Below are positions 16,705 through 33,648 of a stretch of DNA of 64,000 bases, piece after piece. A model generated the notes under the pieces. That model was not told the origin of the DNA, ran no database searches, and saw only the letters and a list, made by a program, of their open reading frames with translations. This DNA is from Candidatus Komeilibacteria bacterium RIFOXYD1_FULL_37_29 (GTDB lineage Bacteria > Patescibacteriota > Patescibacteriia > UBA1558 > GWA2-36-10): the NCBI GenBank assembly GCA_001818495.1, contig MHKS01000005.1, positions 250,038 to 314,037 on the forward strand, read 5' to 3'. A program made the translations under genes and the position numbers. Each line of letters starts with the position of its first letter. Position 1 is the stretch's first letter.

Positions 16705-16764
16705 GCTACGGTCGAGGGAAAATAGTTATCCACTTGTGGGCTATTTTTTTTCATGTTAAGATCA

Positions 16765-19596: not shown

Positions 19597-19686
19597 GGAG
19601 AGGTGCTAGAGTGGTTGAATAGGGTGCTCTCGAAAAGCACTAGTCCTGAAAGGGACTCGGGGGTTCAAATCCCTCCCTCTCCGCCA
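19597..19686 (+). tRNA. tRNA-Ser (anticodon CGA), type II with a long variable arm, 3' CCA encoded
   Basis: GGAGAGGTG...acceptor, with the pairing CCTCTCC-G-CCA at the 3' end. D-loop AGAGTGGTTGAA. Anticodon loop CTCGAAA. Long extra arm. T-arm GGTTCAAATCC. Confidence 0.85.
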
Positions 19687-20190: not shown

Positions 20191-22020
20191 ATGTCTAAAA
20201 AAATTGATTACGACAACTGGTCAAAAGATGAGATAATCAAGGAGATTAGGCGAATCAAAGAAACTACATACGGACTTGTGTGGCATCGCGACTTACCTGA
20301 GGAAAAAATTGATATTCTTATAAACCCAGATGCTCGGACTCCAAATGAAATGTTCCCTAACGAAATGGCGGGCAAGCCATTTCCAGTTTTGAAAGAGGCA
20401 AAAACAAAAACAATTGAGACTGATAAAAATAAGCCGACAAATATTTTGATTGAGGGTGATAATTATCATTCTCTTGCCGTTTTGAATTTTACTCATCAAG
20501 AAGCAATTGATTTGATTTACATTGATCCGCCTTACAATACTGGCCACAACGATTTTGTTTACAATGATAAAATTAAAAGCGGTTATGTTGTTAAAGATGA
20601 TCCATTTAGGCATAGTAAATGGATTTCTTTCATGGAAAAAAGGTTAAAACTCGCAAAAAATTTATTGAAATCGTCGGGTGTTATTTTTATTAGTATTGAC
20701 GACAATGAATTTGCTCCATTAAAAATGCTGTGTGACGAGATTTTTGATGAAAGTAATTTCATCTCTATGTTGTCAATTGAAAATAATCCTAAGGGACGGA
20801 AAAACTCCGATTTTATATCTATTTGTAATGATTATTGTCTTATATACGCTAAAGACAAAGGTAAAAGTTATTTTGTTGAAAATATTCCCAAACAAGCTGA
20901 CGACTTAACGATTGATGATAATGGAGACTATGTACACAATAGCGGCAAACGGGTCCTTGTTGGAGAAAATAAATTTAATCCGCTTGTAGAAGATTTTGAA
21001 TCAGCTAAGCATTATAGTGTTTATTACAATCAGACTGATAATAAAATTAAAATAGAGGTGGAAAAAAATATTCACGAGGCAAACAAAGATTTATTAAAAA
21101 ACGGATATAAAAGATACTATTCTTATTTTGGAGACAGATTTGTCTTGAATACTTATACAAAATCAAAAATCATAGAGCTTTTCGAAGATGAGGCTCTCGA
21201 ATTCAAAAATGGGAGTATATATGAAAAAAATTTCAGCACAACAATTAGACTAAAAAGTCTTGTTATCAATAAAAAATATGAGGCAGTAATAAATAATGAA
21301 AAAGCAGAATATCAAATAGATGTTAAAACGACTTCAGCGAAGACTGAATTAAAGGATATTTTCAACACTGACCAAATTCCATTTGATAACCCCAAGAATA
21401 TTGGTTTGATAAAATTATTGGTAACATTATTTGAAAATAAATCAATAACTATTTTAGATTTTTTTGCAGGATCGGGAACGACCGGGCATGCAGTCCTTGG
21501 TCAAAATAAAGAAGATGGAGGAAATCGACAATTTATTCTGTGCACGAATAATGAAAATAATATATGCACTGATATCTGCTATCCCCGTCTTGGAAAAGTT
21601 ATAAAGGGATATAAAAATTCAAGAAATGAAAAAATTGATGGTTTGGGTGGAAACCTGAGATATTTTACTGCTTATGACTTTGTAGAAGCTAAGGAAACAG
21701 ATAGAAACAAAAGAAAACTAGTAAACCAATCAACAGAAATGCTTTGCATTAAGGAAAATGCTTTTGAGCTTGTGCAAGAAGTTGAAGATTATAAAATCTT
21801 CAAGAATCATGATAAATATTTGGGAATTATTTTTCATGAAGATTCTATATCGGACTATGTCAAAGCAATAAAAAAGATAAAAGGACACTTTAATACTTAT
21901 ACATTTTCAATGACGGATGATCCTCACAAAGAGGAATTTACTGATGTTGCGGACAAAGTAACTCTTTGTGCAATTCCAGAAATGATTTTGAAAGTATATC
22001 ATGAGATTTTCAAGGAATAA
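20191..22020 (+). CDS. mod: Type III restriction-modification system, Mod subunit (N6-adenine DNA methyltransferase)
   Basis: Motif IV DPPY within LIYIDPPYNTGHNDFVYND. Motif I FFAGSGTTGHAV. 609 aa. Overlaps res by 20 nt. Confidence 0.85.
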   Translation: MSKKIDYDNWSKDEIIKEIRRIKETTYGLVWHRDLPEEKIDILINPDARTPNEMFPNEMAGKPFPVLKEAKTKTIETDKNKPTNILIEGDNYHSLAVLNFTHQEAIDLIYIDPPYNTGHNDFVYNDKIKSGYVVKDDPFRHSKWISFMEKRLKLAKNLLKSSGVIFISIDDNEFAPLKMLCDEIFDESNFISMLSIENNPKGRKNSDFISICNDYCLIYAKDKGKSYFVENIPKQADDLTIDDNGDYVHNSGKRVLVGENKFNPLVEDFESAKHYSVYYNQTDNKIKIEVEKNIHEANKDLLKNGYKRYYSYFGDRFVLNTYTKSKIIELFEDEALEFKNGSIYEKNFSTTIRLKSLVINKKYEAVINNEKAEYQIDVKTTSAKTELKDIFNTDQIPFDNPKNIGLIKLLVTLFENKSITILDFFAGSGTTGHAVLGQNKEDGGNRQFILCTNNENNICTDICYPRLGKVIKGYKNSRNEKIDGLGGNLRYFTAYDFVEAKETDRNKRKLVNQSTEMLCIKENAFELVQEVEDYKIFKNHDKYLGIIFHEDSISDYVKAIKKIKGHFNTYTFSMTDDPHKEEFTDVADKVTLCAIPEMILKVYHEIFKE

Positions 22021-24262
22021 TTATATGTCATGGATTAATTTTAAAAATTATCAAGAAACTGCAATCGATGAAATACGCGACAAGATTAATGCCCTGCTCA
22101 AAAAAGAGGGTAATAGACTTTGCGTATTCAAAGCTCCGACTGGTTCGGGGAAAACTTTAATGATGGCGGAATGGATGATGAGGTTTTGTGACCCATATTC
22201 GCGAATTGATGGGAAAACTTTTTCTTTTGTATGGATAGCAGTAAATAAATTACATGATCAAAGCCATGACAGTTTAAAAAAGTTTTATGAGCTCAAAGGA
22301 GCGGGGCTTCGTTGTTCATATTTTCACGAACTTGAGGATAGAAAAATAAAACAGAACGAGATTTTATTTTTGAATTGGGCAAGTATCAATAATGAAGACA
22401 AGATTATTGTTCGCGCGAATGAAAGAGATAATAATCTCTCAACAATAATTGATCGGACCAAAGATGCCAGTCGGACAATTATTTTGATTATCGACGAAAG
22501 CCACCATACCGCAAAAAGTAAAAATTCAAAGGCTTTAATAAAAAATATTGACCCTAAAATTACGATCGAGGTTTCTGCTACACCAGAAATTTTTGATTTT
22601 GATGAGCGGGTAACCATTGATATTGAGGATGTACGAAGCGAGGAAATGATAAAGAAAGAAATTGTAGTGAACCCTGGCTTCAAAAATTACACAGTTGATC
22701 CAAAAAAGAACGATCAAACAGCAGACGAATTAATCTTGAAGTCTGCTTTGCAAAAAAGGATTGATTTGCGAAAAAAATTAGAAAAAGATGGTTCAAATGT
22801 CAATCCCTTATTACTTATTCAATTACCGGATACAAAAAAAGGAGTTCCTGATAAAAAAGAGGAGATTGAAACACTTCTTGCTAAATTTGGCTATACAACA
22901 AAAAATGGAAAGTTGGCTGTCTATCTTTCTGAAAAAGATAACAAAATAAATCTTGCTAATATTGAGAAAAATGAAAACGAAGTGGAGGTAATGATGTTCA
23001 AGCAAGCGATTGCACTTGGTTGGGATTGTCCAAGAGCTACAATTCTTGTGCTTTTCCGTCAATGGAAAGATGAAACGATAACATTCTCAATCCAAACATT
23101 GGGAAGAATCATGCGTATGCCTGAGCAAAAACATTATAAAGATCAAGAGTTGAATATTGCTTATCTTTATACTAGTTTACAAGACATTAATACTCGTATT
23201 TTGAAAGGTGCTTCGTCGGGAATAAAATCTCTTACGAGTTATCGCAATGAGAAATATAAAAATATTGACCTAATTTCATATCACTCAAAACGATTCCGTG
23301 AGGAAACTCGTTTGTCTTCTGATTTTGTGAAAATTTTTATCGAAGCCGCTAAAAAAACAAATTTAAAAGATGTTTCGCTAAAAGTCGGGATTGTGAAAAC
23401 AACAATGATCAAAGATGGACGCGTGGAAAATGCGGATAAAGAAATAACAAAGATTGAAAGTGATACTTTTTCTATACCCAAAACAGAGACGGAGCTGCAA
23501 TATACTTTTGATATGTTTGTGCTTGATAATCTTGATCCGTTTGAACATGAAGCCCGTTCTATAAAACGCATAAACGATTCAATTTATACTTTCTTTGGCG
23601 CACGACGCAAAGAAGATGAATGGCCTAAAATACAAGCCACGATACTTTCGTATGAAAAGAATCGCCAAGCTGTAATTGATGCTATTAATCTAGCAAAAGA
23701 TTTATATAAAACCGAAGTTGGAAAAGGCAAAAAAGAACTGATACAAAATGATGAGCCGTGGAATGTGCCAGAAGCTATTAATTTTGATCCGTCATTTGTA
23801 GAGCAAAATTATAAAAAATCTATAATGCAACCATATTACGCTCGTTCTCGGGATGGAGAAAACGGACGATTGTTTGAGGACAGTGAAATTGAAAATGATT
23901 TTATTAAATACCTAGAAAAAGCACAGAAAGTTGTTTGGTGGTTCAGAAATGGGAAACAAGACGGATCATTTTTTGCTGTCCCGCACATTGAACACGGACA
24001 AGAAAAGCCGTTTTATGTTGATTTTATAGTTATGATGAAAAATGGAACTGTTGGGCTTTTTGATACAAAATCAGGATATACTGCCGAACTAGCAAAATCT
24101 CGCTCTGATGGACTTGTAAAATATATTAATGAGCAGAAAAAGAAAAAAATTACTGGCGGAATTGTGAGATACGAAAAGAAAAGTTGGCTATATTTTACTA
24201 ACAAAGAATATAAATATAATCCGAATGATATAAAGGATTGGGAATTTTTGGATTTGAATTAA
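22001..24262 (+). CDS. res: Type III restriction enzyme, Res subunit (SF2 helicase-nuclease)
   Basis: Walker A FKAPTGSGKT. DEAH box IIDESHH. 753 aa. Translationally coupled to mod. Confidence 0.85.
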   Translation: MRFSRNNYMSWINFKNYQETAIDEIRDKINALLKKEGNRLCVFKAPTGSGKTLMMAEWMMRFCDPYSRIDGKTFSFVWIAVNKLHDQSHDSLKKFYELKGAGLRCSYFHELEDRKIKQNEILFLNWASINNEDKIIVRANERDNNLSTIIDRTKDASRTIILIIDESHHTAKSKNSKALIKNIDPKITIEVSATPEIFDFDERVTIDIEDVRSEEMIKKEIVVNPGFKNYTVDPKKNDQTADELILKSALQKRIDLRKKLEKDGSNVNPLLLIQLPDTKKGVPDKKEEIETLLAKFGYTTKNGKLAVYLSEKDNKINLANIEKNENEVEVMMFKQAIALGWDCPRATILVLFRQWKDETITFSIQTLGRIMRMPEQKHYKDQELNIAYLYTSLQDINTRILKGASSGIKSLTSYRNEKYKNIDLISYHSKRFREETRLSSDFVKIFIEAAKKTNLKDVSLKVGIVKTTMIKDGRVENADKEITKIESDTFSIPKTETELQYTFDMFVLDNLDPFEHEARSIKRINDSIYTFFGARRKEDEWPKIQATILSYEKNRQAVIDAINLAKDLYKTEVGKGKKELIQNDEPWNVPEAINFDPSFVEQNYKKSIMQPYYARSRDGENGRLFEDSEIENDFIKYLEKAQKVVWWFRNGKQDGSFFAVPHIEHGQEKPFYVDFIVMMKNGTVGLFDTKSGYTAELAKSRSDGLVKYINEQKKKKITGGIVRYEKKSWLYFTNKEYKYNPNDIKDWEFLDLN

Positions 24263-24265
24263 ATT

Positions 24266-25450
24266 ATGGCATTAGAATCAGAAAAATTGGAAGAAAAAAT
24301 AGTTGATAATTATTTTACTGATACTCTATATAGTAGTCGGGAATTTAAGGGTGGAGTAGGTAAATTTTTTACAATAGTATCTCAGGATGAAAATGATATC
24401 CCAAATGTAGTTGATGTTGAGCATTCGTATCCTATACGCAATAAAATAAAGACAACGCTGACATTTATCAAAAAAGAAAACGAAATTACAGCCATTTCCT
24501 TTAAGCGTTTTAAATATTATAAAAAAGAACATTGGGTTGAACAACCAGAAGAACAGATTACTTTTTCATACAGTCTTTTTAAAAAAATTATTGGGTATTT
24601 ACAGTTACTATCAGAATTAAATTTGTCGGCTATTAGTGAGCGAAGAATTGCTTTAGCCGATGACACATTACCGAATATTGACGATGAAACAAAAAAGAAG
24701 ATTAAAACATTGCTTTTACGCAAAGATGGGCAAAAAATTATTGAGGAATTAATAAATAGCGGAATAATTACATCAACCGATATTGTAAATATCGGGTATC
24801 GAAAAAAACAACTTGATGTTTTTGAGAAGCTCCTGACACAACCCGATTATTTTGCAACCTATATAACTGAAAGTAAAATTACAGATACTCGTCATGAGTC
24901 TGTTTGGCAACATTTCTTCCATTCTAATGATTGGATTTTTGGATATGGACTAGATTATCGCTTTCTTGGCATCCTGCAAAAAGAAGCTCATATTTCAAAT
25001 ACAGACGTCGCAGGAAAAGGGGCTGTTATAAATGATTTTCTACTCGGGTGCAATAAATTCACCGTTTTGGTTGAATTAAAAAAACACGACACACCATTAT
25101 TTGGAAAAGACAAAAACCGGTCAAACTCTTGGACACTTTCAGATGATTTAATATCTGGTCTATCTCAAATATTAGAGCAAAAAGCTAGTTGGCAGGTTTC
25201 GGCCGAGACAAATGCAAGTGGAAATTTTGACGATAAGGGTAATTTGATAAAACAAAAAACTATCGATCCAAAAAGTATCTTAGTTATCGGATCAACAAAG
25301 CAATTTGATGGTGATGATAAAGAAAATCAAATTAAAGCAAAAACCTTTGAACTTTTTAGACGAGATTCAAGAAATATAGAAATTCTTACTTATGACGAAC
25401 TGTATGAGAGAGCGAAGTTTATTGTTGAACATAAACAGAAAGACAACTAG
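24266..25450 (+). CDS. Putative defense-associated PD-(D/E)xK nuclease, Shedu (SduA/DUF4263)-like
   Basis: 394 aa. Core AVINDFLLGCNKFTVLVELKK gives D...ELK, a PD-(D/E)xK signature. C-terminal KSILVIGST...IEILTYDELYERA resembles DUF4263 ends. Immediately downstream of Type III R-M. Confidence 0.4.
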   Translation: MALESEKLEEKIVDNYFTDTLYSSREFKGGVGKFFTIVSQDENDIPNVVDVEHSYPIRNKIKTTLTFIKKENEITAISFKRFKYYKKEHWVEQPEEQITFSYSLFKKIIGYLQLLSELNLSAISERRIALADDTLPNIDDETKKKIKTLLLRKDGQKIIEELINSGIITSTDIVNIGYRKKQLDVFEKLLTQPDYFATYITESKITDTRHESVWQHFFHSNDWIFGYGLDYRFLGILQKEAHISNTDVAGKGAVINDFLLGCNKFTVLVELKKHDTPLFGKDKNRSNSWTLSDDLISGLSQILEQKASWQVSAETNASGNFDDKGNLIKQKTIDPKSILVIGSTKQFDGDDKENQIKAKTFELFRRDSRNIEILTYDELYERAKFIVEHKQKDN

Positions 25451-25793: not shown

Positions 25794-26387
25794 ATGGATC
25801 AACAAACAATCAATACATACAACAGGATGTCACAAGAGTATGATGATGAAACAGCTGATTTTTGGGAGCGATTTCCTCGAACATTTCTTGATAAATTTAT
25901 TAAGCTATCCGGTAATAAAATACTTGATGTTGGGAGCGGACCAGGTAGAGATGGTTTGATACTTCAACAGGCCGGTAAAAATGTTGTCTGTGTGGATGCT
26001 TCTGCAGCAATGGTGAAATTGTCTTCAGACAGAGGTTTAAACTCTATAGTAGCCAGTTTCGACAATTTACCATTTGAAAATAATTCATTTGACGGCGTAT
26101 GGTCATATACTGCTCTTTTACATATTCCCAAAAAATCTATCGATACCCCTCTTCAAGAGATTTTTCGTATTATCAAACCTTCAGGTATTTTTGCTCTTGG
26201 TCTGATTGAAGGGGACACAGAAGGATACAAAGAAAGCTCTGAAGTGACTATGCCTCGTTGGTTTAGTTTCTATCAGAAAGACGAAGTTGAAAATTTATGC
26301 CAAAAGCACGGATTTGAGCTGGTTTACTTTGAGACTTTTAAACCAGGGTCCAAGCCCTATTTGAATTTTATTTTTCGAAAAATATAA
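25794..26387 (+). CDS. Class I SAM-dependent methyltransferase (Methyltransf_11-like)
   Basis: Motif I KILDVGSGPGRDGL. Acidic motif II VVCVDAS. 197 aa. Confidence 0.75.
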   Translation: MDQQTINTYNRMSQEYDDETADFWERFPRTFLDKFIKLSGNKILDVGSGPGRDGLILQQAGKNVVCVDASAAMVKLSSDRGLNSIVASFDNLPFENNSFDGVWSYTALLHIPKKSIDTPLQEIFRIIKPSGIFALGLIEGDTEGYKESSEVTMPRWFSFYQKDEVENLCQKHGFELVYFETFKPGSKPYLNFIFRKI

Positions 26388-26416: not shown

Positions 26417-26665
26417 TTTTCACTGTCTTTTCAGGCAGTTTTTTGGTATAATCAAAGCATTAATTAATAAAAATATTATGATTGACGAAGAAATAAAGCA
26501 AATTATTCAGGAAAATAAGGACACTTTGGCTAATATTGATAAAAGGATTGGTCGGATTGAGAAAAATTTTATTTGGAGTTCAATTTTTGGTTTTATAAAG
26601 ATTGTTATTATTGTAGCACCGATTGTTTTTGGTATTATTTATTTTACGCCATTTTTGAAAGATTT
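26417..26665. repeat. Left copy of a roughly 250-bp direct repeat (about 95% identical to 33399..33648). It carries an extended -10 promoter (TTTTGGTATAAT) and the 5' part of a small membrane-protein gene.
   Basis: Direct sequence comparison. Shared sequence runs from TTTTCACTGTCTTTTCAGGCAGTTTTTTGGTATAATCAAAG through ...TTTACGCCATTTTT. Confidence 0.9.
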
Positions 26666-26707: not shown

Positions 26708-28426
26708 ATGAAAAAGTCAAAAGTCATATTAGGGATTACTGCCTTTAATCATGATTCTTCGGCGTGCTTAATTTATCAAGGTAGAGTAATTGCATTTTGT
26801 GAGGAGGAAAGATTCAATGGCATAAAACATACCGGAGATTTTCCGATAAAATCAATTTTATTTTGTTTAGAAAAAGCTGGTTTGTCATTAAATGATGTGA
26901 CTGATGTAGCTTTTTATTTTAATATTAAAAAATGTTTATTGAGTTATATAAAGAACAATAATCCACTCTATTATATTATTCATCCATCTTTATTTAAGAG
27001 GAAAAGATTTTATTATGAAATTATTTGGTTATTTAGTTTTATAAACAAAATTAATTCAATTAAAAAACTCCTTAATAATTATAAGATAAAGATTACTTAT
27101 GTAGATCATCATATGGCGCACGCTTGGTATGGGTATTTTTCTTCAAATTTTAAAAATTGCACGGTAGTTTCTAATGACAGCGTAGGCGAGAGTGTGAGTA
27201 GTTTAGCCGTAAAGATACAGAGAGAAGATAAAAAAATTATTTTTGGTAAGACATTCAGTCAAACAGACCCTCACTCTATTGGGTATTTGTATGGTGCTAT
27301 AACTGAATTTTTAGGATTCAAAAGAGGTCAAGACGAAGGAAAGGTTATGGCTATGGCGGCTTTAGGGAAAGATAAATATGTAAAATATTTTGATGACTTG
27401 ATTAGATATTTACCTAATGGGGAATTTAGAATAAGTAAGGAGTTGATTTCCTTACGTAATTTTCAGCCAAAATCACAAAGATTAAGCAATGATTTTTTAA
27501 AAAAATTTGGATATTATCGTCAACCCCAAGAACCATTTATCCAAAAGCATTATGATATTGCTTATGCAATACAAGGGGTAACGGAAAAAATTTTATATCA
27601 CCAATTAAAATATATTAATGATGATAATATAGTCATTACTGGTGGTATTGCTCAAAATAGTGTAGCCAACGGGAAACTCAACAATTTTTTTTATAAAAGA
27701 AATATATTTATTCCTCCGATTCCTAATGATGCCGGGTGTGGTATTGGCGCGGCGCTTTCTTTATATTATAAGTATTATGAAGATTTACCAGAGTTTGTGG
27801 ATACTGCGTTTTTAGGCCCAGAATTTTCTGATCATAAAATCATTAAAACATTAGAAAATAATAAAATAAATTTTAAAATTATAAAAAATCAGACGGAATT
27901 CATTATTAATGAGCTTTTGAAAAATAAGATTATCGCTATATATAGAAATGAGATGGAGTGTGGTCCTAGGGCATTAGGTAATAGGAGTATAATAGCCAAT
28001 CCAATTGATCCGGCGATGAAGAATTACATCAATGAAAAAATAAAACACCGTGAATTTTTTCAGCCATACGGCGGGTTGATTATTGATAAAAATGTTAAAG
28101 AAGTATTTGATTATAAGAATAAAAATATTTCCGGACCATATATGTCTTTTGTTTATCCAATTAAAGATAAATGGTTAAAAATGTTTCCATCTTTGGTTCA
28201 TTTTGATAAAACTTCTAGAATTCAAATAATAAAGAAGGAACAAAATTTTTTATATAGTCTCTTGGAAGAATTTTATAAAAAAACAGGTGTCCCCGTAATT
28301 ATAAATACTTCCCTTAATTTAAGAGGGCAGCCTATGGCAAGAAGCCATCAAGATGCTTTAAACACATTTTATAATTCGGGGATTCATTATATTTTATTTA
28401 ATAACAGTATTCTAGTTTCAAAATGA
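26708..28426 (+). CDS. NodU/CmcH-family carbamoyltransferase
   Basis: N-terminal KVILGITAFNHDSSACLIYQGRVIAFCEEERFNGIKHTGDFP matches the carbamoyltransferase N-domain (compare TobZ/NodU ...LG...HD.AAAL..DG.I.AA.EEERF.R.KH). A DHHMAHAWYGYF metal-binding motif is present. 572 aa. Confidence 0.85.
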   Translation: MKKSKVILGITAFNHDSSACLIYQGRVIAFCEEERFNGIKHTGDFPIKSILFCLEKAGLSLNDVTDVAFYFNIKKCLLSYIKNNNPLYYIIHPSLFKRKRFYYEIIWLFSFINKINSIKKLLNNYKIKITYVDHHMAHAWYGYFSSNFKNCTVVSNDSVGESVSSLAVKIQREDKKIIFGKTFSQTDPHSIGYLYGAITEFLGFKRGQDEGKVMAMAALGKDKYVKYFDDLIRYLPNGEFRISKELISLRNFQPKSQRLSNDFLKKFGYYRQPQEPFIQKHYDIAYAIQGVTEKILYHQLKYINDDNIVITGGIAQNSVANGKLNNFFYKRNIFIPPIPNDAGCGIGAALSLYYKYYEDLPEFVDTAFLGPEFSDHKIIKTLENNKINFKIIKNQTEFIINELLKNKIIAIYRNEMECGPRALGNRSIIANPIDPAMKNYINEKIKHREFFQPYGGLIIDKNVKEVFDYKNKNISGPYMSFVYPIKDKWLKMFPSLVHFDKTSRIQIIKKEQNFLYSLLEEFYKKTGVPVIINTSLNLRGQPMARSHQDALNTFYNSGIHYILFNNSILVSK

Positions 28427-29247
28427 TTAAAGATTTTCAAAAGATAGAGTTTTTAAAATCACTTTACAGTGATAAAGACTTAATATCGTTTCGTGGCAAT
28501 TTTTTAAAAAATAATTCCAACCGTAAATTCTCATTAAGATCTTTTATTATTAAACTTTTGCCGATGCTAAAGGATAAAAAAATATTAGACATTGGTTGCG
28601 GAGACGGGTCATTCCTCAATAAATTACATACGGTATATCCTCAAAATAAATATTTTGGTTTGGATGTAGTAGATAATGCTAAATGCCATAAATTGAAATT
28701 TCTTGACTACAAAATTTATGATGGTAAATCCAGGGTTTATTATACGGAAAAATTTGATGTGATATTTTGTATGCACACTGTTTATCATATCGAAGATTTA
28801 TTCACTTTTTTTACAACGATGAAAGACTATTTAAAGCCCCATGGCATTATTATCATTACTACGAAGTCTAAATTGACTTTTCCTAAAATAGAATCAATCT
28901 TTTTAAAGATTGTCGGTAAGCTTGACTTAAAAAAATATTTAAAAATTAGCAAACACAGAGAGGAATCAAAATTTTGTTTGGAGAACGGATTAAACAGATT
29001 AAAAAAACACTTCGCTAGGCGGTCATTTAGTATAAATGAGTATGTTTTAGAAACGCAGGTTTTTGTTAATGACAAAAAAGATCTTTTGAAATATGTTTTT
29101 TCTACAAATAGATATAATATTTTGAAAGATACTTTAAACAAAAAAATTGTTGAAAAATATACAAAACTTTGGTTTGAAGAAATTGATAAAGATCAGATAT
29201 TCATTGATAAATATACGGAGGCTGTTTATTTAATAAAAAAATTATGA
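28423..29247 (+). CDS. SAM-dependent methyltransferase
   Basis: Motif I KILDIGCGDGSFLNKL. D-x motif KYFGLDVVD. Start overlaps the upstream stop by 4 nt. Confidence 0.7.
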   Translation: MIKDFQKIEFLKSLYSDKDLISFRGNFLKNNSNRKFSLRSFIIKLLPMLKDKKILDIGCGDGSFLNKLHTVYPQNKYFGLDVVDNAKCHKLKFLDYKIYDGKSRVYYTEKFDVIFCMHTVYHIEDLFTFFTTMKDYLKPHGIIIITTKSKLTFPKIESIFLKIVGKLDLKKYLKISKHREESKFCLENGLNRLKKHFARRSFSINEYVLETQVFVNDKKDLLKYVFSTNRYNILKDTLNKKIVEKYTKLWFEEIDKDQIFIDKYTEAVYLIKKL

Positions 29248-30311
29248 AAATAGGTTATAGTTGCTGGGGATTTTTGGGTAACGGAATAAAGGATACACCG
29301 GATGGCGGGAGGAGTCACCGGTTGACTTTATTGAAAGAATTAATCCGTCAAGGAGTTGAAATAGTAATGTTGCAAAAGAATAGAGACCTCATTGAAGGCA
29401 ATCAAAGTTTTTCACGAAAGAATTTAATATTTAGTGGTGAGTTACCGGAAATAGATGCTCTATTTGTAGAATATAGATGGAAGATAGTAGGAAGGAATTA
29501 TAAGGTGAGAAAAAATAATCCAGCCTATACTCCGGATTTCGATAGACAGAGTGAATTAATTAATTTTTATAATAATAGAAATATTCCTATTATTATTTGG
29601 GATAAAGATCAGAAACTTGGTAAGAATGAAATAAAAGGCATTAAAAATTTGATTGTATTTGAACCTGCTTTAAAGCCAAGGTTTAATAGAAAAAGTTTAT
29701 TGTTTCCGATGGACAATCATAGAACAAAAATTGTCCTCAAATTGATAGGTAAGTATAAAAAAAATATTAAGAGCTCCAAGTTGTGTTACATTGGAAATCA
29801 ATATGAGAGAGATGGTAGTTTTAAAGAGTTTATTAATAAGCCAGCCAGTATGCTCGATACCAAAACACCAGTATTTGGTAATTGGAACAAATATCCAGAA
29901 AAGTATAAGCAAAATATGCAAAAATTTTCCAATGTTGAATTTAAAGGTAGGGTGCAGTTTAATAAAGTTAATAATATTTATAAAAAATCTTTTTCTACAG
30001 TTCTTATCGCGCCACGGAGATATTATATCACGGGTCATTTTACACAAAGATTATTTGAGGCAATGTGGGGCTTATGCATTCCTTTTACCCCGCAGCAATA
30101 TCATGGATGGCAGGGTTTAATAATAAAAGATTTTATAATTAGATCTGGCAAAGATTTAATAAATAAGATAAAAAAATTAGAAACAACGCCCGATTCAGAT
30201 ATAAGGAGAATGTTTGATAGACAGTTTGAGAAACTTAATTTATTTAATGCCAGTAAACAAGCCAGTATAATTATAAACGAAATCAATAATCATAATGGTA
30301 GACTCGGGTAA
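29244..30311 (+). CDS. T4 beta-glucosyl-HMC-transferase-like (BGT-family GT-B) putative DNA glycosyltransferase
   Basis: Comparison with the recalled T4 BGT sequence shows collinear matches. MKIGYSCWGFLGNG vs MKIAIINMGNNVIN. RLTLLKELIRQGVEIVMLQKN vs IYLFKVISEMGLNVDIISLKN. CYIGNQYERDGSF vs IYGGSFRSGQRE. TKTPVFGNWNKYP vs TKAPVFTGKIP. FTQRLFEAM vs ITLRVWETM. 355 aa versus 351 aa for T4 BGT. Confidence 0.55.
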   Translation: MKIGYSCWGFLGNGIKDTPDGGRSHRLTLLKELIRQGVEIVMLQKNRDLIEGNQSFSRKNLIFSGELPEIDALFVEYRWKIVGRNYKVRKNNPAYTPDFDRQSELINFYNNRNIPIIIWDKDQKLGKNEIKGIKNLIVFEPALKPRFNRKSLLFPMDNHRTKIVLKLIGKYKKNIKSSKLCYIGNQYERDGSFKEFINKPASMLDTKTPVFGNWNKYPEKYKQNMQKFSNVEFKGRVQFNKVNNIYKKSFSTVLIAPRRYYITGHFTQRLFEAMWGLCIPFTPQQYHGWQGLIIKDFIIRSGKDLINKIKKLETTPDSDIRRMFDRQFEKLNLFNASKQASIIINEINNHNGRLG

Positions 30312-31074
30312 TAAAAATAAATCTTTAGAAATTGTAATTGATTCTAAACACTATATTAAAAAAAGATATTCTGATATCCAACGTTTTTTTTGTGAATTAA
30401 AATATCTTAAATATTTTAAAGATGAAGATATCAATGTTCCTTTTATATATAAATTTGATAAAATCCAAAAAACAATAATAATAGATAAAATAAAGGGGAA
30501 AATCGGCGATTCATTAAATAATAGAGACACAAAACTATGCATTGATGTGCTTGTCAAAATAATTTTTATTTTTGGTTTGGAAAAGAAAAATAATAATGAA
30601 ATTGATAGGTATATTTCAAAAGTCAGGTCAAATATAATATGGTGGTGTGAAAATAATAATTATATAGTAGAAAAAGAAAAATTAAATATTTTACTTCAAA
30701 AGTTAAGAAAAGTGTGTTATATATCTTTATTCAAAGATGCCAAACCATCTAATTGGATTTTTCAAAAAGATAAAATATACGCAATAGACTTTGATTATGT
30801 AAAAAAATCATTTTTTTTAGCAGATTTAGCACAACTTTTAAGTTATATTTCATTAAGGAAAAAAATAAGTTATATTTTCTTTGTAAATTATTATCTAAAG
30901 CAAATATTCCCAAAAATGAAGGATTATGATAAATTTTATATACCTTTTAAATTAGCGCTTGTTAATTCCAACATTGCTTCTGAACTTCACAGAGAGAATT
31001 TAGGAGCCTATGTAAAAAGGGGTTTTGCCAAACAAAACAGGTTTATTTTGAGTGAATTTAAGATAATATTATAA
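30295..31074 (+). CDS. Atypical protein-kinase-like (Kdo/WaaP/RIO-type) small-molecule kinase
   Basis: Catalytic-loop-like FKDAKPSNWIF (D-x-K-P-x-N) and a metal-binding IYAIDFDYV (DFD) motif. 259 aa. Confidence 0.4.
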   Translation: MVDSGNKNKSLEIVIDSKHYIKKRYSDIQRFFCELKYLKYFKDEDINVPFIYKFDKIQKTIIIDKIKGKIGDSLNNRDTKLCIDVLVKIIFIFGLEKKNNNEIDRYISKVRSNIIWWCENNNYIVEKEKLNILLQKLRKVCYISLFKDAKPSNWIFQKDKIYAIDFDYVKKSFFLADLAQLLSYISLRKKISYIFFVNYYLKQIFPKMKDYDKFYIPFKLALVNSNIASELHRENLGAYVKRGFAKQNRFILSEFKIIL

Positions 31075-31955
31075 TGTCAATATCAATAACCGCCAAATCA
31101 GCTAATGAAGCATTCATTAAAATAGCTGATAAATTGTATAATAATCCGGAATATGTTTCTAGTCCTCGAAGCTGGGAAACAAGGGAGTTATTAGGGGCTT
31201 TTATTGTTATCAACAATCCCTATGATCGTTTTATAAATAATGTTCATAGGAAGATTTCTTTAAAGTATCTTATTGGTGAATGGTTATGGTATGAGCGAGG
31301 ATCCAATTCTTTAAATGAAATTAATTATTATGCAAAATTTTGGAGCAGTATTTCGGATGATAAAATAACTGCCAATTCAGCTTATGGTCATAGAATTTTA
31401 GGGATCAATAAGTTCGTGATTATTAATCAATGGAAGTGGGCCAAACGGCAAATAATAAAAGATAAGGAAACAAGGAGAGCCATCATTTTTATTGGATTGC
31501 CAAGTGATATGAAAAACGAAACGAAAGATTTTCCTTGCACTATGTCACTCCAGTTTTTAATAAGAAATAATGAGTTACATTTAATTTGCAATATGAGGAG
31601 CAATGATTTAGTATTGGGTTTTACTTATGATGTAGCTACCTTTACTTTATATCAAGAAAAAATGTTGTTGGAGTTGAAAAAATATTATCCAAAATTAAAG
31701 ATAGGTAAATATTTTCATATGGTAGGCAGTTTACACGTATATAAGAAAAACTATGAGATGATAAAAAAAGTGATAAATGATCAGGACAATAATTTGAAAA
31801 TTACCATGCCTCGCATGGGTGATTTAAAAGAAATAAAAAAACTCCAGTATAACGAGAGTATTATAAGAGAAAATAAAAATAAAAAGTTTAAAAAAATTGA
31901 AGATAGATTCTGTATCTGGTGTCAGAATATTTTATTAAATAAAATTAAATACTAA
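31074..31955 (+). CDS. Thymidylate-synthase-family pyrimidine-nucleotide C5 (hydroxy)methylase with predicted dCMP specificity (deoxycytidylate hydroxymethylase-like)
   Basis: Collinear with E. coli ThyA. KYLIGEWLWYERG vs RSIIHELLWFLQG. The YG loop is conserved. RRAII vs RRIIV. FPCTMSLQFLIRNNELHLICNMRSNDLVLGFTYDVATF vs [38 protein letters not shown]. The catalytic Cys is present. The Asn that reads O4/N3 of dUMP (E. coli N177) is Asp here, as in T4 dCMP hydroxymethylase (Asp179). Confidence 0.7.
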   Translation: MSISITAKSANEAFIKIADKLYNNPEYVSSPRSWETRELLGAFIVINNPYDRFINNVHRKISLKYLIGEWLWYERGSNSLNEINYYAKFWSSISDDKITANSAYGHRILGINKFVIINQWKWAKRQIIKDKETRRAIIFIGLPSDMKNETKDFPCTMSLQFLIRNNELHLICNMRSNDLVLGFTYDVATFTLYQEKMLLELKKYYPKLKIGKYFHMVGSLHVYKKNYEMIKKVINDQDNNLKITMPRMGDLKEIKKLQYNESIIRENKNKKFKKIEDRFCIWCQNILLNKIKY

Positions 31956-31956
31956 A

Positions 31957-32628
31957 ATGAAAGGCATAATTATAGACGGAGTTGTTTCTTCTGGTAAAAC
32001 GTCTATCTTAAAACATCTTCATCGTCTGATTTCAGAACAAAACCCTACTTCAACCAAGTTTTTTATTAGTGAACACTATACTGAGAGAATGTTGGAGCAT
32101 TTGAAAGATAAAGGTGAATTAGACGGTAGCCATATAAAAGCCCACGTTGATCAGTTAATCCATACTTTAGCTTCTTTTCAGTCTATGTTGGATAATTCTA
32201 AGTTTCGTGATAACCCGAAAGGAGCAGATTTGTTTGTTACTTTAGAAAGATTTATTCTAACCCATTTGTCCTCAGTGGACATAGGAGATAAATATAGTCT
32301 TGATGAAGTCAAAGCTCATTTTGAAATTTTAAACAAGCTAGGAGTAAAACAAGTAGCTTTAATAATTCCCGAATCAAGACTAAAAGAAAATATCATGTCG
32401 ACTCTGCAATATCGAAATGACGCCTGGTTGGATTATTTGTATTCTAGGGGTGGAGAAAAAGAAATTATAGAATATTATATCAATTGGCAGAATAATTTTT
32501 TAGAGTATATCAACAAATTTAAAGATATAATAGATACCTTAGTCATCGAAGTAAAAGATCAAGACTATCTTCAATATAGTAATACTATTTTTAATAGTTG
32601 TATTAAATCAGATATTCTCTCAAAATAA
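31957..32628 (+). CDS. P-loop nucleoside/deoxynucleoside monophosphate kinase-like protein
   Basis: N-terminal Walker A MKGIIIDGVVSSGKTSILKHL. 223 aa. The position after the ThyA-like gene mirrors phage dNMP kinases. Confidence 0.45.
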   Translation: MKGIIIDGVVSSGKTSILKHLHRLISEQNPTSTKFFISEHYTERMLEHLKDKGELDGSHIKAHVDQLIHTLASFQSMLDNSKFRDNPKGADLFVTLERFILTHLSSVDIGDKYSLDEVKAHFEILNKLGVKQVALIIPESRLKENIMSTLQYRNDAWLDYLYSRGGEKEIIEYYINWQNNFLEYINKFKDIIDTLVIEVKDQDYLQYSNTIFNSCIKSDILSK

Positions 32629-33114
32629 ATGTTTTTTAATTTTATGTTTTTTATACTTTACCCCGGCTAAATCAAAGAGTTTTTTAGAAACGATAAAATT
32701 ATTCGCATCTTTGTCTGATCTATCATCTTGATAGATTATATTTTTTATGCCGCTTTGGATAATAATTTTTGCACACTCATTGCAGGGGAAGAGTAAACAG
32801 TAAAGTTTTGCATTTTCGGCTGATTGATTAGTATTTAAAATGGCATTTACTTCAGCGTGAACAACATACGGATATTTTGTATTTAAGATATTTTTTTTGT
32901 TATGCCCGTAATTATTACTCCAAGAAAAATGCCCTTCCTTAATACCTCTAGGCCAACCGTTGTAGCCAACTCCTAAAACAACATTATTTTTATCAACCAC
33001 GACAGCTCCGGTTTGAGTTGATGGGTCTTTTGATCTCTGAGCTATAACTTGAGCCATTAGCATAAATGTTTCATCCCACGATAAATAGTTTTTTCTAGCT
33101 TTTATATTATCCAT
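32620..33114 (-). CDS. Deoxycytidylate (dCMP) deaminase
   Basis: Zinc site HAEVNAI and PCNECAKII (cytidine/deoxycytidylate deaminase signature). 164 aa. Convergent with the kinase gene. Confidence 0.85.
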   Translation of the reverse strand: MDNIKARKNYLSWDETFMLMAQVIAQRSKDPSTQTGAVVVDKNNVVLGVGYNGWPRGIKEGHFSWSNNYGHNKKNILNTKYPYVVHAEVNAILNTNQSAENAKLYCLLFPCNECAKIIIQSGIKNIIYQDDRSDKDANNFIVSKKLFDLAGVKYKKHKIKKHLF

Positions 33115-33398: not shown

Positions 33399-33648
33399 TT
33401 TTTCACTGTCTTTTCAGGCAGTTTTTTGGTATAATCAAAGCATTAATTAATAAAAATATTATGATTGACGAAGAAATAAAGCAAATTATTCAGGAAAATA
33501 AGGAAACTTTAGCTAATATTGATAAAAGAATTGGTCGGATTGAGAAAAATTTTATTTGGAGTTCAATTTTTGGTTTTGTAAAGATTGTTATTATTTTAGG
33601 GCCGATTATTTTTGGTATTATTTATTTTACGCCATTTTTAAAAGATTT
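33399..33648. repeat. Right copy of the roughly 250-bp direct repeat (see 26417..26665), including promoter TTTTGGTATAAT
   Basis: Direct comparison. Confidence 0.9.

What the first reader, a model, noticed from the sequence alone, without database searches (positions are those of the whole stretch)
31074..31955. ThyA homolog carrying Asp at the substrate-discriminating position (E. coli N177), the hallmark of dCMP hydroxymethylase-type specificity
A gap-free alignment over the active-site region (FPCTMSLQF...MRSNDLVLGFTYDVATF vs APCHAFFQF...[18 protein letters not shown]) conserves the catalytic Cys, the Arg of the RS motif and the Asp of the folate-binding CD motif. It places Asp where thymidylate synthases have Asn. 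In T4 dCMP hydroxymethylase this is Asp179, and N177D in ThyA switches its preference to dCMP. A dedicated dUMP-specific thymidylate synthase is not otherwise visible in the window.
Basis: partly seen in the sequence, partly recalled or inferred. Interest (0 to 1): 0.7.

Follow-up and report, generated by a model that had tools for sequence, protein, structure and literature searches.

The report
dCMP hydroxymethylase in hypermodification cassette
The gene that databases call "thymidylate synthase" has the active-site signature of an enzyme that adds a hydroxymethyl group to the DNA building block dCMP, and it sits in a compact, horizontally acquired seven-gene operon of a tiny groundwater bacterium that looks built to decorate that modified cytosine further, a pathway so far described only in viruses and antibiotic producers.

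Summary
ORF 31074-31955 (+, 293 aa) is a ThyA-fold protein, and a formal alignment places Asp186 at E. coli Asn177 with no register shift. All 120 homologues share this Asp.

Asp177 alone only selects cytosine. The protein also has:
- the published hydroxymethylation signature: Asp152 three residues before the catalytic Cys155, and Ser102-x-Tyr104;
- Asp178, so it is not a flavin 5-hydroxy-dCMP synthase;
- Ser176 and Arg134, the deoxyribose signature, where MilA has Ala and Lys.

The prediction is dCMP to 5-hydroxymethyl-dCMP.

The gene is the fifth of six tightly packed, mostly overlapping genes, with a convergent dCMP deaminase:
- an O-carbamoyltransferase;
- a SAM methyltransferase;
- a GT-B glycosyltransferase (T4 beta-glucosyltransferase is the top Foldseek hit);
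- an APH-like kinase;
- the hydroxymethylase;
- an NMP-kinase-like protein.

This 6.98-kb, 28.5% GC cassette is bracketed by 249-nt direct repeats. It lies next to a Type III R-M system and Shedu in a Komeilibacteria chromosome.

The core set of genes recurs in Patescibacteria and many Actinomycetota. The glycosyltransferase plus hydroxymethylase pair recurs beside DNA polymerase in uncultured phage contigs.

Whether the product ends up in DNA or as a free nucleotide metabolite is unresolved.

The parts
26417..26665 (.). Left copy of a 249-nt direct repeat. It contains a hairpin with a T-run, TGGTATAAT, and the start of a truncated 70-aa copy of the small membrane protein gene. It lies immediately upstream of the operon.
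   Evidence: The two copies are 240/249 identical, and identity drops to random on both sides.
26708..28426 (+). O-carbamoyltransferase of the NodU/CmcH/TobZ type, 572 aa. It is the first gene of the operon.
   Evidence: Carries Carbam_trans_N and Carbam_trans_C. Matches PDB 7xb6 at E 9e-66, and also GdmN, NovN and TobZ. Only 22% identical to the characterised phage 5hmC carbamoyltransferase.
28423..29247 (+). Class I SAM-dependent methyltransferase, 274 aa. Its start overlaps the stop of the carbamoyltransferase gene.
   Evidence: Methyltransf_23, _31 and _11. Conserved in the cassettes L007 and L009.
29244..30311 (+). GT-B fold glycosyltransferase, 355 aa, of the CgeB / Glyco_trans_1_2 type.
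30295..31074 (+). Kinase of the protein-kinase-like / aminoglycoside-phosphotransferase-like type, 259 aa.
   Evidence: Weak Bud32 and APH matches. K23, D148, N153 and D165 are invariant in an alignment with the APH-annotated cluster proteins of Streptomyces.
31074..31955 (+). ThyA-fold dCMP hydroxymethylase (predicted 5-hydroxymethyl-dCMP synthase), 293 aa. This is the finding.
31527..31538 (+). Codons for Asp152-Phe-Pro-Cys155. Cys155 is the catalytic Cys, and Asp152 lies three residues upstream as part of the hydroxymethylation signature.
   Evidence: The rule comes from PMC6400193 and PMC13326640.
31599..31631 (+). Codons from Ser176 (deoxyribose signature) through Asp178 (folate-type enzyme, not a hydroxylase) to Asp186 (the E. 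coli N177 position; cytosine specificity).
   Evidence: The rules come from PMC5175136, PMC13326640 and PMC8670742.
31957..32628 (+). P-loop protein with a nucleoside- or nucleotide-monophosphate-kinase fold, 223 aa. Candidate 5hm-dCMP kinase.
   Evidence: Has the GVVSSGKT P-loop. AlphaFold2 model with pLDDT 89.5. Foldseek hits are adenylate, dTMP, uridine-cytidine and deoxynucleoside kinases. Conserved in L007 and L009.
32620..33114 (-). dCMP deaminase (ComEB / phage cd type), 164 aa. It is convergent with the operon, overlaps its 3' end, and lies inside the repeat-bounded cassette.
   Evidence: PF00383 at E 2.4e-23 and phrog_174 at E 6.7e-39. A deaminase also follows the ThyA-like gene in L007 and L120 and in phage modules.
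33400..33648 (.). Right copy of the 249-nt direct repeat. It is the promoter-proximal part of the intact small membrane protein gene (33386/33462-33811).

Best explanation
Shown by sequence: ORF 31074-31955 is a ThyA-fold enzyme that carries every published active-site discriminator of a folate-dependent deoxycytidylate hydroxymethylase.

Inferred mechanism: Cys155 attacks C6 of dCMP, whose cytosine is read by Asp186. The methylene of CH2-THF is transferred to C5. Instead of hydride transfer, a water positioned by Asp152, Ser102 and Tyr104 adds to the exocyclic methylene. The products are 5-hydroxymethyl-dCMP and THF.

Shown by gene order and comparative genomics: the gene is part of a tightly packed operon with a carbamoyltransferase, a methyltransferase, a GT-B glycosyltransferase, an APH-like kinase and an NMP-kinase-like protein, plus a convergent dCMP deaminase. 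This operon is a 6.98-kb low-GC insertion bounded by 249-nt direct repeats.

Inferred pathway: the NMP-kinase-like protein takes 5hm-dCMP towards the triphosphate. The hydroxymethyl group, or a sugar put on it by the glycosyltransferase, is then carbamoylated, methylated and/or phosphorylated.

Favoured but unproven destination: DNA. That would be a T4-like pre-replicative cytosine hypermodification carried by a cellular genome in a defence island.

My confidence in the enzyme assignment alone is about 0.85. For the cassette as one pathway it is about 0.8. For DNA as the destination it is about 0.45.
For: Enzyme:
- The alignment gives the residues listed above.
- The rules come from mutational and structural papers. 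N177D selects cytosine (PMC8670742; PMC6400193). D145N in T4 dCH abolishes 5hm-dCMP formation, and Asp(-3 from Cys) plus Ser-x-Tyr is proposed as the hydroxymethylase signature. L143D/E marks hydroxymethyl versus methyl, and D169N marks the hydroxylase. Ser167 and Arg126 mark deoxyribose, and the MilA A176S/K133R mutant switches to dCMP.
- The best PDB relatives are MilA and T4 gp42.
- The protein is 27% identical to authentic T4 gp42 at E 9e-22.

Cassette:
- Adjacent genes overlap or are separated by one base, and the cassette is 28.5% GC against 38% for the rest of the window.
- The flanking repeats are sharply bounded.
- The same gene set occurs in other Patescibacteria (L007, L009, L120).
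- In the best 80 of 374 cellular loci that encode a relative of the glycosyltransferase, the carbamoyltransferase is present in 77, the ThyA-like gene in 76, the methyltransferase in 72, the APH-like kinase in 72 and a small P-loop kinase in 68. 75 of the 76 ThyA-like genes carry D143, D169 and D177.

DNA destination:
- Glycosyltransferase relatives lie within 8 kb of a ThyA-like gene in 23 of 27 IMG/VR loci; the 16 partners extracted and aligned all carry D143, D169 and D177. In the loci examined they sit directly beside phage DNA polymerase, a Tmk-like kinase, NDP-sugar enzymes and dCMP deaminase, which in one locus is fused to a MazG/PRA-PH domain.
- Carbamoyltransferase, ThyA and dCMP deaminase domains co-occur on cytosine-modified phage contigs, and the carbamoyltransferase-ThyA pairing is seen only there. 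A phage carbamoyltransferase makes 5-carbamoyloxymethyl-dC.
- No MilB-like N-glycosidase is present in the cassette.
- Four of the roughly 500-aa homologues are ThyA-like proteins fused to a thymidylate-kinase domain.
Against: - There is no biochemical or DNA-composition evidence of any kind; everything rests on sequence rules and context.
- The closest solved relative is MilA, an antibiotic-pathway enzyme that acts on a ribonucleotide.
- The cassette has no dCTPase (MazG/PRA-PH), which phages use to force complete replacement.
- The carbamoyltransferase is far closer to small-molecule O-carbamoyltransferases than to the phage 5hmC enzyme.
- APH-like kinases, a histidine phosphatase, an epimerase, NUDIX hydrolases and TPR or MmyB-type regulators in the actinomycete versions, and an ABC exporter next to the Agrobacterium copy, look like a specialised-metabolite cluster.
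- No homologue of the glycosyltransferase was found in any isolated phage.
Confidence: 0.6

Rival explanations
1. The enzyme assignment is the same, but the cassette makes a free, decorated 5-hydroxymethyl-(deoxy)cytidine nucleotide or nucleoside rather than modified DNA. Such a product could be an antimetabolite, a toxin, a signal, or an anti-phage nucleotide analogue.
For: - The core set of carbamoyltransferase, glycosyltransferase, methyltransferase, APH-like kinase and ThyA-like gene is widespread in Actinomycetota. There it comes with an epimerase, a histidine phosphatase, NUDIX hydrolases, a CTP-transferase and TPR or MmyB-type regulators.
- An ABC exporter follows the Agrobacterium copy.
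- The carbamoyltransferase groups with small-molecule O-carbamoyltransferases.
- The two known cellular ThyA-like hydroxymethylases, MilA and BcmA, serve antibiotic pathways (PMC5175136).
- There is no dCTPase in the cassette.
Against: - No MilB/BcmB-type N-glycosidase is present, which is the step that follows in both known antibiotic pathways.
- The deoxyribose signature, the NMP-kinase-like partner and the dCMP deaminase point to the dNTP pool.
- The phage relatives of the glycosyltransferase sit in replication modules.
- Patescibacteria have tiny genomes and little specialised metabolism (general knowledge).
Confidence: 0.33
2. It is an ordinary thymidylate synthase (dUMP to dTMP), as the source databases label it, with the neighbouring dCMP deaminase supplying dUMP.
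For: PF00303 is the only Pfam match above its cut-off. NCBI and JGI name homologues 'thymidylate synthase'. A dCMP deaminase is adjacent.
Against: Asn177, Leu143, His147 and Gln165 are all replaced, by D, D, T and M respectively, exactly as in T4 gp42 and MilA. Scores are 62.7 bits at best against equivalog cut-offs of 108-576. Real thymidylate synthases are weaker PDB hits than the two hydroxymethylases.
Confidence: 0.02
3. It is a dCMP C5-methyltransferase (XP12 type). The product, 5-methyl-dCMP, is either incorporated into DNA or deaminated by the adjacent deaminase to dTMP, which would bypass thymidylate synthesis.
For: Asp177 alone gives dCMP methylation in E. coli ThyA N177D. A dCMP deaminase is a recurrent neighbour.
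Against: Asp152 at the L143 position and Ser102-x-Tyr104 mark hydration rather than hydride transfer. The operon partners (O-carbamoyltransferase, glycosyltransferase, kinase, and a sulfotransferase in relatives) all need a hydroxyl acceptor.
Confidence: 0.04
4. It is a MilA/BcmA-type CMP (ribonucleotide) hydroxymethylase.
For: MilA is the best solved relative, at about 35% identity and E 1.5e-30.
Against: MilA's two ribose determinants, Ala176 and Lys133, are Ser176 and Arg134 here. That is the combination that converts MilA to a dCMP enzyme. No MilB-like partner is present.
Confidence: 0.08
5. It is a flavin-dependent 5-hydroxy-dCMP synthase (RB69 gp48 / HY126 type).
For: Those enzymes share Asp177 and an acidic residue at position 143 and pair with DNA glycosyltransferases.
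Against: Their diagnostic D169N is absent. The query and all 120 homologues keep Asp. HY126-type structures (9iqu, 9iqc) are weaker hits, at E about 3e-12, than T4 gp42 and MilA.
Confidence: 0.03

Closest known systems
Bacteriophage T4 gp42 deoxycytidylate hydroxymethylase (PDB 1b5e, 6a9a)
   Same: ThyA fold. Identical residues at all discriminating positions tested: E58, Y94 with Ser at -2, R126/R127, D143, C146, T147, M165, R166, S167, D169, D177, H207 and Y209. Like gp42 it is encoded close to a GT-B glycosyltransferase, a dCMP deaminase and a nucleotide-kinase-like protein.
   Different: Only 27% identical. It has a C-terminal extension of about 55 residues. It is encoded in a cellular chromosome. 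No dCTPase partner was found in the cassette. It has extra partners: a carbamoyltransferase, a methyltransferase and an APH-like kinase.
MilA / BcmA CMP 5-hydroxymethylases of mildiomycin and bacimethrin biosynthesis (PDB 5b6d)
   Same: Closest solved sequence relative (E 1.5e-30; about 35% identity). Cellular rather than viral origin. Same Asp177, Asp143 and Thr147.
   Different: The ribose determinants Ala176 and Lys133 are Ser and Arg here, the deoxy type. No MilB/BcmB N-glycosidase is in the cassette.
Phage ThyA-homologue plus 5hmC carbamoyltransferase system that makes 5-carbamoyloxymethylcytosine (MetaGPA study, PMC8670742)
   Same: Co-occurrence of an Asp177 ThyA homologue, a two-domain Carbam_trans_N/C enzyme of about 560-570 aa and a dCMP deaminase.
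   Different: The window's carbamoyltransferase is only 22% identical to the characterised enzyme and is much closer to small-molecule O-carbamoyltransferases. There is no PRA-PH/MazG partner. The host is cellular. A glycosyltransferase, a methyltransferase and a kinase are added.
T4 beta-glucosyltransferase (GT63; PDB 1qkj, 1c3j)
   Same: The 355-aa operon partner has the same size and GT-B fold. T4 BGT is the top Foldseek hit. The invariant TQRLFE motif aligns with ITLRVWE in BGT's C-terminal domain.
RB69 gp48 / DLP3 gp80 / HY126 5-hydroxy-dCMP synthases
   Same: ThyA-fold enzymes with Asp177 and an acidic residue at 143, which start a glycosylation pathway.
   Different: They carry D169N and use flavin and O2. 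The query keeps Asp178.
E. coli ThyA thymidylate synthase
   Same: The fold, the catalytic Cys, the phosphate-binding arginines, the Glu58 and Tyr94 equivalents, and His207/Tyr209.
   Different: About 18% identity. Asn177, Leu143, His147, Gln165 and Trp83 are all replaced.

Membership tests
Folate-dependent deoxycytidylate hydroxymethylase (T4 gp42 class) | ThyA/TS fold with the catalytic Cys (E. coli C146) | tested here: met
   PF00303 at E 5.1e-22. Cys155 aligns with C146.
Folate-dependent deoxycytidylate hydroxymethylase (T4 gp42 class) | Asp at the E. coli N177 / T4 D179 position (cytosine recognition) | tested here: met
   Asp186 is at this position, and the alignment is gap-free from C146 to N177. 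123 of 124 aligned sequences have D. HMMER alignments give the same placement.
Folate-dependent deoxycytidylate hydroxymethylase (T4 gp42 class) | [quoted passage not shown] | tested here: met
   Asp152-Phe-Pro-Cys155. The rule comes from PMC6400193 and PMC13326640.
Folate-dependent deoxycytidylate hydroxymethylase (T4 gp42 class) | Ser or Thr two residues before the catalytic Tyr (T4 S94-x-Y96) | tested here: met
   Ser102-Ala-Tyr104. 121 of 124 sequences have SxY, while E. coli has PVY.
Folate-dependent deoxycytidylate hydroxymethylase (T4 gp42 class) | Deoxyribose determinants Ser167 and Arg126' | tested here: met
   Ser176 and Arg134. The rule comes from PMC5175136.
Folate-dependent deoxycytidylate hydroxymethylase (T4 gp42 class) | Catalytic conversion of dCMP and CH2-THF to 5hm-dCMP and THF | not testable with these tools
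   Needs an enzyme assay.
Canonical thymidylate synthase ThyA | Asn177, Leu143, His147 and Gln165, and a score above the NCBIfam equivalog cut-offs | tested here: not met
   The residues are D, D, T and M. The best NCBIfam score is 62.7 bits against cut-offs of 108-576.
MilA/BcmA CMP hydroxymethylase | Ala at S167 and Lys at R126 (ribose preference) | tested here: not met
   Ser176 and Arg134.
MilA/BcmA CMP hydroxymethylase | A partner N-glycosidase (MilB/BcmB) that releases free 5-hydroxymethylcytosine | tested here: not met
   No cassette protein matches such a family. The small conserved protein of the actinomycete clusters is a P-loop kinase-like protein.
Flavin-dependent 5-hydroxy-dCMP synthase (RB69 gp48 type) | Asn at the D169 position | tested here: not met
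   Asp178 is retained. D is invariant in 124 sequences.
Phage 5hmC carbamoyltransferase clade (for ORF 26708-28426) | Two-domain Carbam_trans_N/C architecture | tested here: met
   Full-length alignment to 7xb6, GdmN and TobZ.
Phage 5hmC carbamoyltransferase clade (for ORF 26708-28426) | Membership of the distinct clade found on cytosine-modified phage contigs | tested here: inconclusive
   22% identity and E 7e-13 to the characterised enzyme, against E 9e-66 to 7xb6. The clade-specific residues are not given in the text.
T4 beta-glucosyltransferase-like DNA glycosyltransferase (for ORF 29244-30311) | GT-B fold with the nucleotide-sugar-binding C-terminal domain | tested here: met
T4 beta-glucosyltransferase-like DNA glycosyltransferase (for ORF 29244-30311) | Specific homology to GT63 and 5hmC-DNA as acceptor | tested here: inconclusive
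T4-type pre-replicative hmC pathway | dCTPase (gp56, MazG/PRA-PH type) to deplete dCTP | tested here: not met
   None among the seven cassette genes. One is present in some phage and Patescibacteria relatives.
T4-type pre-replicative hmC pathway | A dNMP kinase that accepts 5hm-dCMP | tested here: inconclusive
   The 223-aa partner has an NMP/dNMP/nucleoside-kinase fold at TM 0.5-0.57 but matches no sequence family.
T4-type pre-replicative hmC pathway | A dCMP deaminase partner | tested here: met
   ORF 32620-33114 lies inside the cassette.

The most novel reading that the evidence does not exclude
Cellular bacteria could run a T4-like pre-replicative pathway on their own chromosome. Carriers would include this Komeilibacteria lineage, other Patescibacteria and several hundred actinomycete species. 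They would incorporate 5-hydroxymethyl-dC and then glycosylate, carbamoylate, methylate and/or phosphorylate it. This would be a self-marking or anti-nuclease DNA hypermodification, spread as a small repeat-flanked cassette within defence islands. Pre-replicative pyrimidine hypermodification has so far been considered a viral trait.
Probability: 0.3. Interest if true: 0.9.

Novelty: new variant of a known kind. Interest (0 to 1): 0.62.

Why it matters
First, the gene and all its relatives are labelled "thymidylate synthase" in public databases. Metabolic reconstructions of CPR bacteria that count it as dTMP synthesis are therefore probably wrong.

Second, the enzyme marks a conserved gene set that I could not find described: hydroxymethylase, GT-B glycosyltransferase, O-carbamoyltransferase, methyltransferase, APH-like kinase and a small P-loop kinase. 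This set occurs at about 374 loci in species-representative cellular genomes, and the hydroxymethylase-glycosyltransferase pair also occurs in the replication modules of uncultured phages.

If the product goes into DNA, this would extend virus-style cytosine hypermodification to cellular chromosomes. It would also offer new DNA-modifying enzymes: a possible new DNA glycosyltransferase family, and sugar or base carbamoylation.

If the product is a free nucleotide, it defines a widespread new class of 5-hydroxymethyl-deoxycytidine-derived metabolites. Either outcome can be tested directly by expressing a 7-kb cassette.

Tried and rejected
- **Sequence searches of the 355-aa, 259-aa and 223-aa partners against PDB.** These gave nothing useful. 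Fold prediction was needed instead.
- **Charge or pI of the cassette proteins as a hint of DNA binding.** Uninformative. The AT-rich genome makes nearly all of them basic, and homologues are acidic.
- **Promoter scan.** Found 52 sites against 49 expected, so it carries no signal in this AT-rich DNA.
- **Agrocin 434.** From memory this is a substituted cytidine nucleoside of Agrobacterium K84. I considered it as the product of the Agrobacterium copy, but there is no glycosyltransferase homologue in any PLSDB plasmid, so I dropped the idea.
- **Homologues of the glycosyltransferase in isolated phages.** None found. The single-sequence scans of IMG/VR also found nothing; only the profile-derived patterns did.
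- **Empty-site search.** I looked for the left flank, one repeat and the right flank in JGI metagenomes and found no match. Absence is not informative.
- **The idea that the small conserved actinomycete protein (167-169 aa) is a MilB-like N-glycosidase.** Rejected; it is P-loop kinase-like.
- **A functional link to the upstream Type III R-M and Shedu genes.** These are standard stand-alone systems and are not conserved next to the cassette in other genomes. I treat the adjacency as a defence-island neighbourhood only.
- **Literature searches for the cellular cassette.** They found no description. The library is limited to open-access papers and bioRxiv.
Full report
**Observation**

It matches Pfam Thymidylat_synt at E 5.1e-22. 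It reaches only 62.7 bits against NCBIfam thymidylate-synthase equivalogs, whose cut-offs are 108-576 bits.

Against solved structures, the best matches are the two characterised cytosine hydroxymethylases. These are MilA CMP 5-hydroxymethylase (5b6d, E 1.5e-30) and T4 deoxycytidylate hydroxymethylase (1b49/1b5e, E 1.3e-17). Genuine thymidylate synthases follow at E 9e-14 or weaker.

A MAFFT L-INS-i alignment with E. coli ThyA, T4 gp42, MilA and 120 database homologues places query Asp186 on E. coli Asn177. There is no relative gap between the catalytic Cys and that position. The T4 gp42 sequence was later confirmed from GenBank record AF158101.

**What the residues say**

Asp at position 177 is the cytosine/uracil switch, not the hydroxymethyl/methyl switch. 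N177D in E. coli ThyA gives 5-methyl-dCMP (PMC8670742). A recently described group of Asp177 enzymes are flavin-dependent 5-hydroxy-dCMP synthases (PMC13326640). I therefore tested the other published discriminators.

1. *Hydroxymethylation signature.* The T4 dCH ternary-complex study shows that Asp145, three residues before the catalytic Cys, and Ser94-x-Tyr96 position the substrate water, and that D145N is inactive. The authors propose these residues as the hydroxymethylase signature; thymidylate synthases have Leu143 instead (PMC6400193). The query has Asp152-Phe-Pro-Cys155 and Ser102-Ala-Tyr104.
2. *Hydroxylase marker.* 5-Hydroxy-dCMP synthases carry D169N. The query keeps Asp178.
3. *Sugar preference.* MilA prefers CMP because it has Ala176 and Lys133 where TS and T4 dCH have Ser and Arg, and the A176S/K133R mutant reverses the preference to dCMP (PMC5175136). 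The query has Ser176 and Arg134.
4. *Secondary positions.* Thr156 (H147), Met174 (Q165) and Ile at W83 also copy T4 gp42.

All 120 homologues share D143, D169 and D177.

The most likely reaction is dCMP + CH2-THF + H2O to 5-hydroxymethyl-dCMP + THF, by the T4 gp42 mechanism. This is an inference from sequence rules backed by mutational data, not a measurement. I put it at about 0.85.

**Surroundings**

The window is chromosomal DNA of a Patescibacteria organism. Two of its proteins, the 355-aa glycosyltransferase and the 223-aa kinase-like protein, are 100% identical to entries named Candidatus Komeilibacteria bacterium RIFOXYC1_FULL_37_11. Identical copies of the gene occur on Rifle-aquifer and other metagenome contigs. 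The flanks carry ftsA, ftsZ, nrdR, prfB, comEC, ndk and ribosomal protein genes.

The hydroxymethylase is the fifth gene of a tightly packed operon whose adjacent genes overlap or are separated by a single base:
- an O-carbamoyltransferase, 572 aa (26708-28426);
- a SAM methyltransferase, 274 aa (28423-29247);
- a 355-aa protein with no Pfam match (29244-30311);
- a 259-aa kinase-like protein (30295-31074);
- the ThyA-like enzyme (31074-31955);
- a 223-aa P-loop protein (31957-32628).

A dCMP deaminase (32620-33114) converges on the 3' end of the operon.

A 249-nt direct repeat (240/249 identical, sharply bounded) lies at 26417-26665 and 33400-33648 and brackets exactly these seven genes. Each copy holds a hairpin with a T-run, TGGTATAAT, and the first 60-odd codons of a small membrane protein gene. 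The right copy belongs to the intact gene, and the left copy is a truncated duplicate directly upstream of the operon.

The enclosed 6.7 kb is 28.5% GC, against 38% for the rest of the window. This is the footprint of an inserted cassette. One possibility is a single crossover of a circular molecule; there is no integrase inside.

Immediately upstream lie a Type III R-M system (Mod, Res) and a Shedu nuclease, so the neighbourhood is a defence island.

**The partners**

The 355-aa protein gave a confident AlphaFold2 model (pLDDT 95.4) with a GT-B glycosyltransferase fold.
- The top four Foldseek hits in the PDB are T4 beta-glucosyltransferase (E 5.6e-11).
- A profile-sequence comparison with authentic T4 BGT gives 76% probability over the C-terminal domain, aligning the invariant TQRLFE with ITLRVWE.

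So it is certainly a GT-B glycosyltransferase, but whether it is BGT-like in the sense of using DNA as acceptor is not established.

The 223-aa protein (model pLDDT 89.5) has the fold of adenylate, thymidylate, uridine-cytidine and deoxynucleoside kinases.

The 259-aa protein aligns with APH-annotated proteins and conserves the ATP-binding Lys, the D-x4-N catalytic loop and the metal-binding Asp.

The carbamoyltransferase matches small-molecule O-carbamoyltransferases over its full length (7xb6 at E 9e-66; also GdmN, NovN and TobZ). It is only 22% identical to the phage 5hmC carbamoyltransferase whose sequence is printed in PMC8670742. That phage enzyme is itself equally distant from all solved structures.

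**Comparative genomics**

The same gene order recurs in other Patescibacteria: carbamoyltransferase, methyltransferase, glycosyltransferase, kinase, an optional sulfotransferase, the ThyA-like gene, and then a P-loop protein and/or dCMP deaminase. Examples are the Woesebacteria locus L007, L009 and L120.

Relatives of the glycosyltransferase at 35-40% identity are abundant in Actinomycetota and also occur in Agrobacterium. A scan of one genome per species found 374 loci. In the best 80 of these loci:
- a carbamoyltransferase is present in 77;
- a ThyA-like gene in 76;
- a methyltransferase in 72;
- an APH-like kinase in 72;
- a small P-loop kinase-like protein in 68;
- an NDP-sugar epimerase in 66;
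- a histidine phosphatase in 50.

75 of the 76 ThyA-like genes carry D143, D169 and D177. At position 167, 41 have Ser and 34 have Gly.

In IMG/VR, 27 viral contigs encode relatives of the glycosyltransferase, and 23 of them have a ThyA-like gene within 8 kb. The 16 partners I extracted and aligned all carry D143, D169 and D177, and 15 of them also have the deoxy-type S167/R126. Where I annotated these loci, the pair sits directly beside a phage DNA polymerase, a Tmk-like small kinase, NDP-sugar enzymes (epimerases, UDP-galactopyranose mutase, UDP-glucose dehydrogenase) and a dCMP deaminase, which in one locus is fused to a MazG/PRA-PH domain. That is the canonical layout of a phage DNA-hypermodification module.

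The MetaGPA study found that carbamoyltransferase, ThyA, PRA-PH and dCMP deaminase domains co-occur on cytosine-modified phage contigs, and that the carbamoyltransferase-ThyA pairing occurs only there. It also showed that one such carbamoyltransferase converts 5hmC in DNA and 5hm-dCTP to 5-carbamoyloxymethylcytosine.

**Mechanistic reading**

I consider it shown that the ThyA-like gene is one component of a conserved, mobile, multi-enzyme pathway. I consider it well supported that its own step is dCMP hydroxymethylation.

It is inferred that the NMP-kinase-like protein phosphorylates 5hm-dCMP. Support comes from the ThyA-like/thymidylate-kinase fusions among the homologues. It is also inferred that the remaining enzymes, all of which act on hydroxyl or amino groups, decorate the hydroxymethyl group or a sugar attached to it.

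The destination is open.

*For DNA:*
- the deoxy signature;
- the kinase and deaminase partners;
- the absence of the N-glycosidase that follows hydroxymethylation in both known antibiotic pathways;
- the phage replication-module context of the glycosyltransferase family;
- the defence-island location.

*For a free metabolite:*
- there is no dCTPase in the cassette;
- the carbamoyltransferase has affinities with small-molecule enzymes;
- the actinomycete clusters carry APH-like kinases, a phosphatase and NUDIX hydrolases, and have TPR or MmyB-type regulators nearby;
- an ABC exporter follows the Agrobacterium copy;
- I know of no report of 5hmC derivatives in actinomycete DNA (my own knowledge, not a tool result).

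I weight DNA at about 0.45, a free nucleotide or nucleoside product at about 0.35, and something else for the remainder.

**Comparison with the known, and novelty**

As an enzyme this is a new, divergent member of the known pyrimidine hydroxymethylase class. It passes every sequence-level membership test for the T4 gp42 type. It fails the tests for canonical ThyA, for the MilA/BcmA ribonucleotide type and for the D169N hydroxylase type.

As a system it resembles the T4 pathway (hydroxymethylase, dNMP kinase, deaminase, glucosyltransferase) and the phage 5-carbamoyloxymethylcytosine pathway. It differs in four ways:
- it is cellular and cassette-borne;
- it lacks a dCTPase;
- it combines glycosyl-, carbamoyl-, methyl- and phospho-transfer (and sulfo-transfer in relatives);
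- its carbamoyltransferase comes from a different lineage.

I found no paper describing this cellular cassette in the searchable library. That library does not cover subscription journals. I rate it a new variant of a known kind, with interest 0.62. The enzyme call alone is modestly interesting, chiefly as a correction of a systematic misannotation. The cassette would be highly interesting if its product enters cellular DNA.

Noticed in passing
window 26417-26665 and 33400-33648: A 249-nt direct repeat (96% identical, sharply bounded) brackets the seven-gene cassette. It duplicates the promoter region and the first 60-odd codons of a small membrane protein gene. The insertion contains no integrase, so a single crossover of a circular molecule is one possible origin.
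   Followed up: partly
window 20191-25450: A Type III restriction-modification pair (Mod 609 aa, Res 753 aa) followed by a Shedu SduA nuclease (394 aa; PADLOC E 1.7e-154). Together they form a defence island directly upstream of the cassette.
   Followed up: partly
window 19429-19596: An 84-nt tandem duplication (96% identical) containing G+C-rich hairpins, immediately upstream of tRNA-Ser(CGA) at 19597-19686.
   Followed up: no
window 16745-16885: A cobalamin riboswitch (Rfam RF00174, 34.4 bits). It lies between nrdR (16231-16704) and a 599-aa protein that has a prenyltransferase-like alpha-alpha toroid and a DUF4430 domain (17038-18837).
   Followed up: no
window 77-10813: A 3578-aa ORF with a T4SS-pilin-like N-terminus and He_PIG/Big_5 Ig-like domains. 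It is followed by two proteins with bacterial TSP3 repeats.
   Followed up: no
window 25794-26387: A second SAM methyltransferase (197 aa) lies just outside the left repeat. It also occurs upstream of the cassette on related contigs (L001, L002), so whether it belongs to the pathway is unclear.
   Followed up: no
L008 10001-12947: A 51%-identical ThyA-like gene with the same D143/D169/D177 signature. It sits at the end of a complete carAB-pyrBI-pyrKD-pyrF-pyrC-pyrE operon and is followed by a metallophosphatase, an unknown 302-aa protein and a MazG-like protein. This is a different, dCTPase-containing context in another cellular genome.
   Followed up: partly
homologues P0052-P0100: Sixteen homologues are about 500 aa long. 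Four of them carry a thymidylate-kinase domain (PF02223) fused to the ThyA-like domain, so they are hydroxymethylase-kinase fusions.
   Followed up: partly
homologues P0012 and P0015; IMG/VR locus L014: A few family members carry a MilA-like ribose-type signature. P0012 and P0015 have Lys126 with Gly167 and Glu207, and the L014 partner has Lys126 with Ala167. This suggests switches between ribo- and deoxyribonucleotide substrates within the family. In addition, 34 of 76 cellular cassette enzymes have Gly167.
   Followed up: partly
L007 8866-10008; L009 6579-7676; L120 11819-12961: Other Patescibacteria cassettes insert a Sulfotransfer_3 protein between the kinase and the ThyA-like gene, which would add a possible sulfation step.
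   Followed up: no
L044 (Amoebophilaceae MAG): The only cellular locus in which the glycosyltransferase relative lies near a canonical-signature ThyA (RRLCHSDNHY) rather than an Asp177 enzyme.
   Followed up: no
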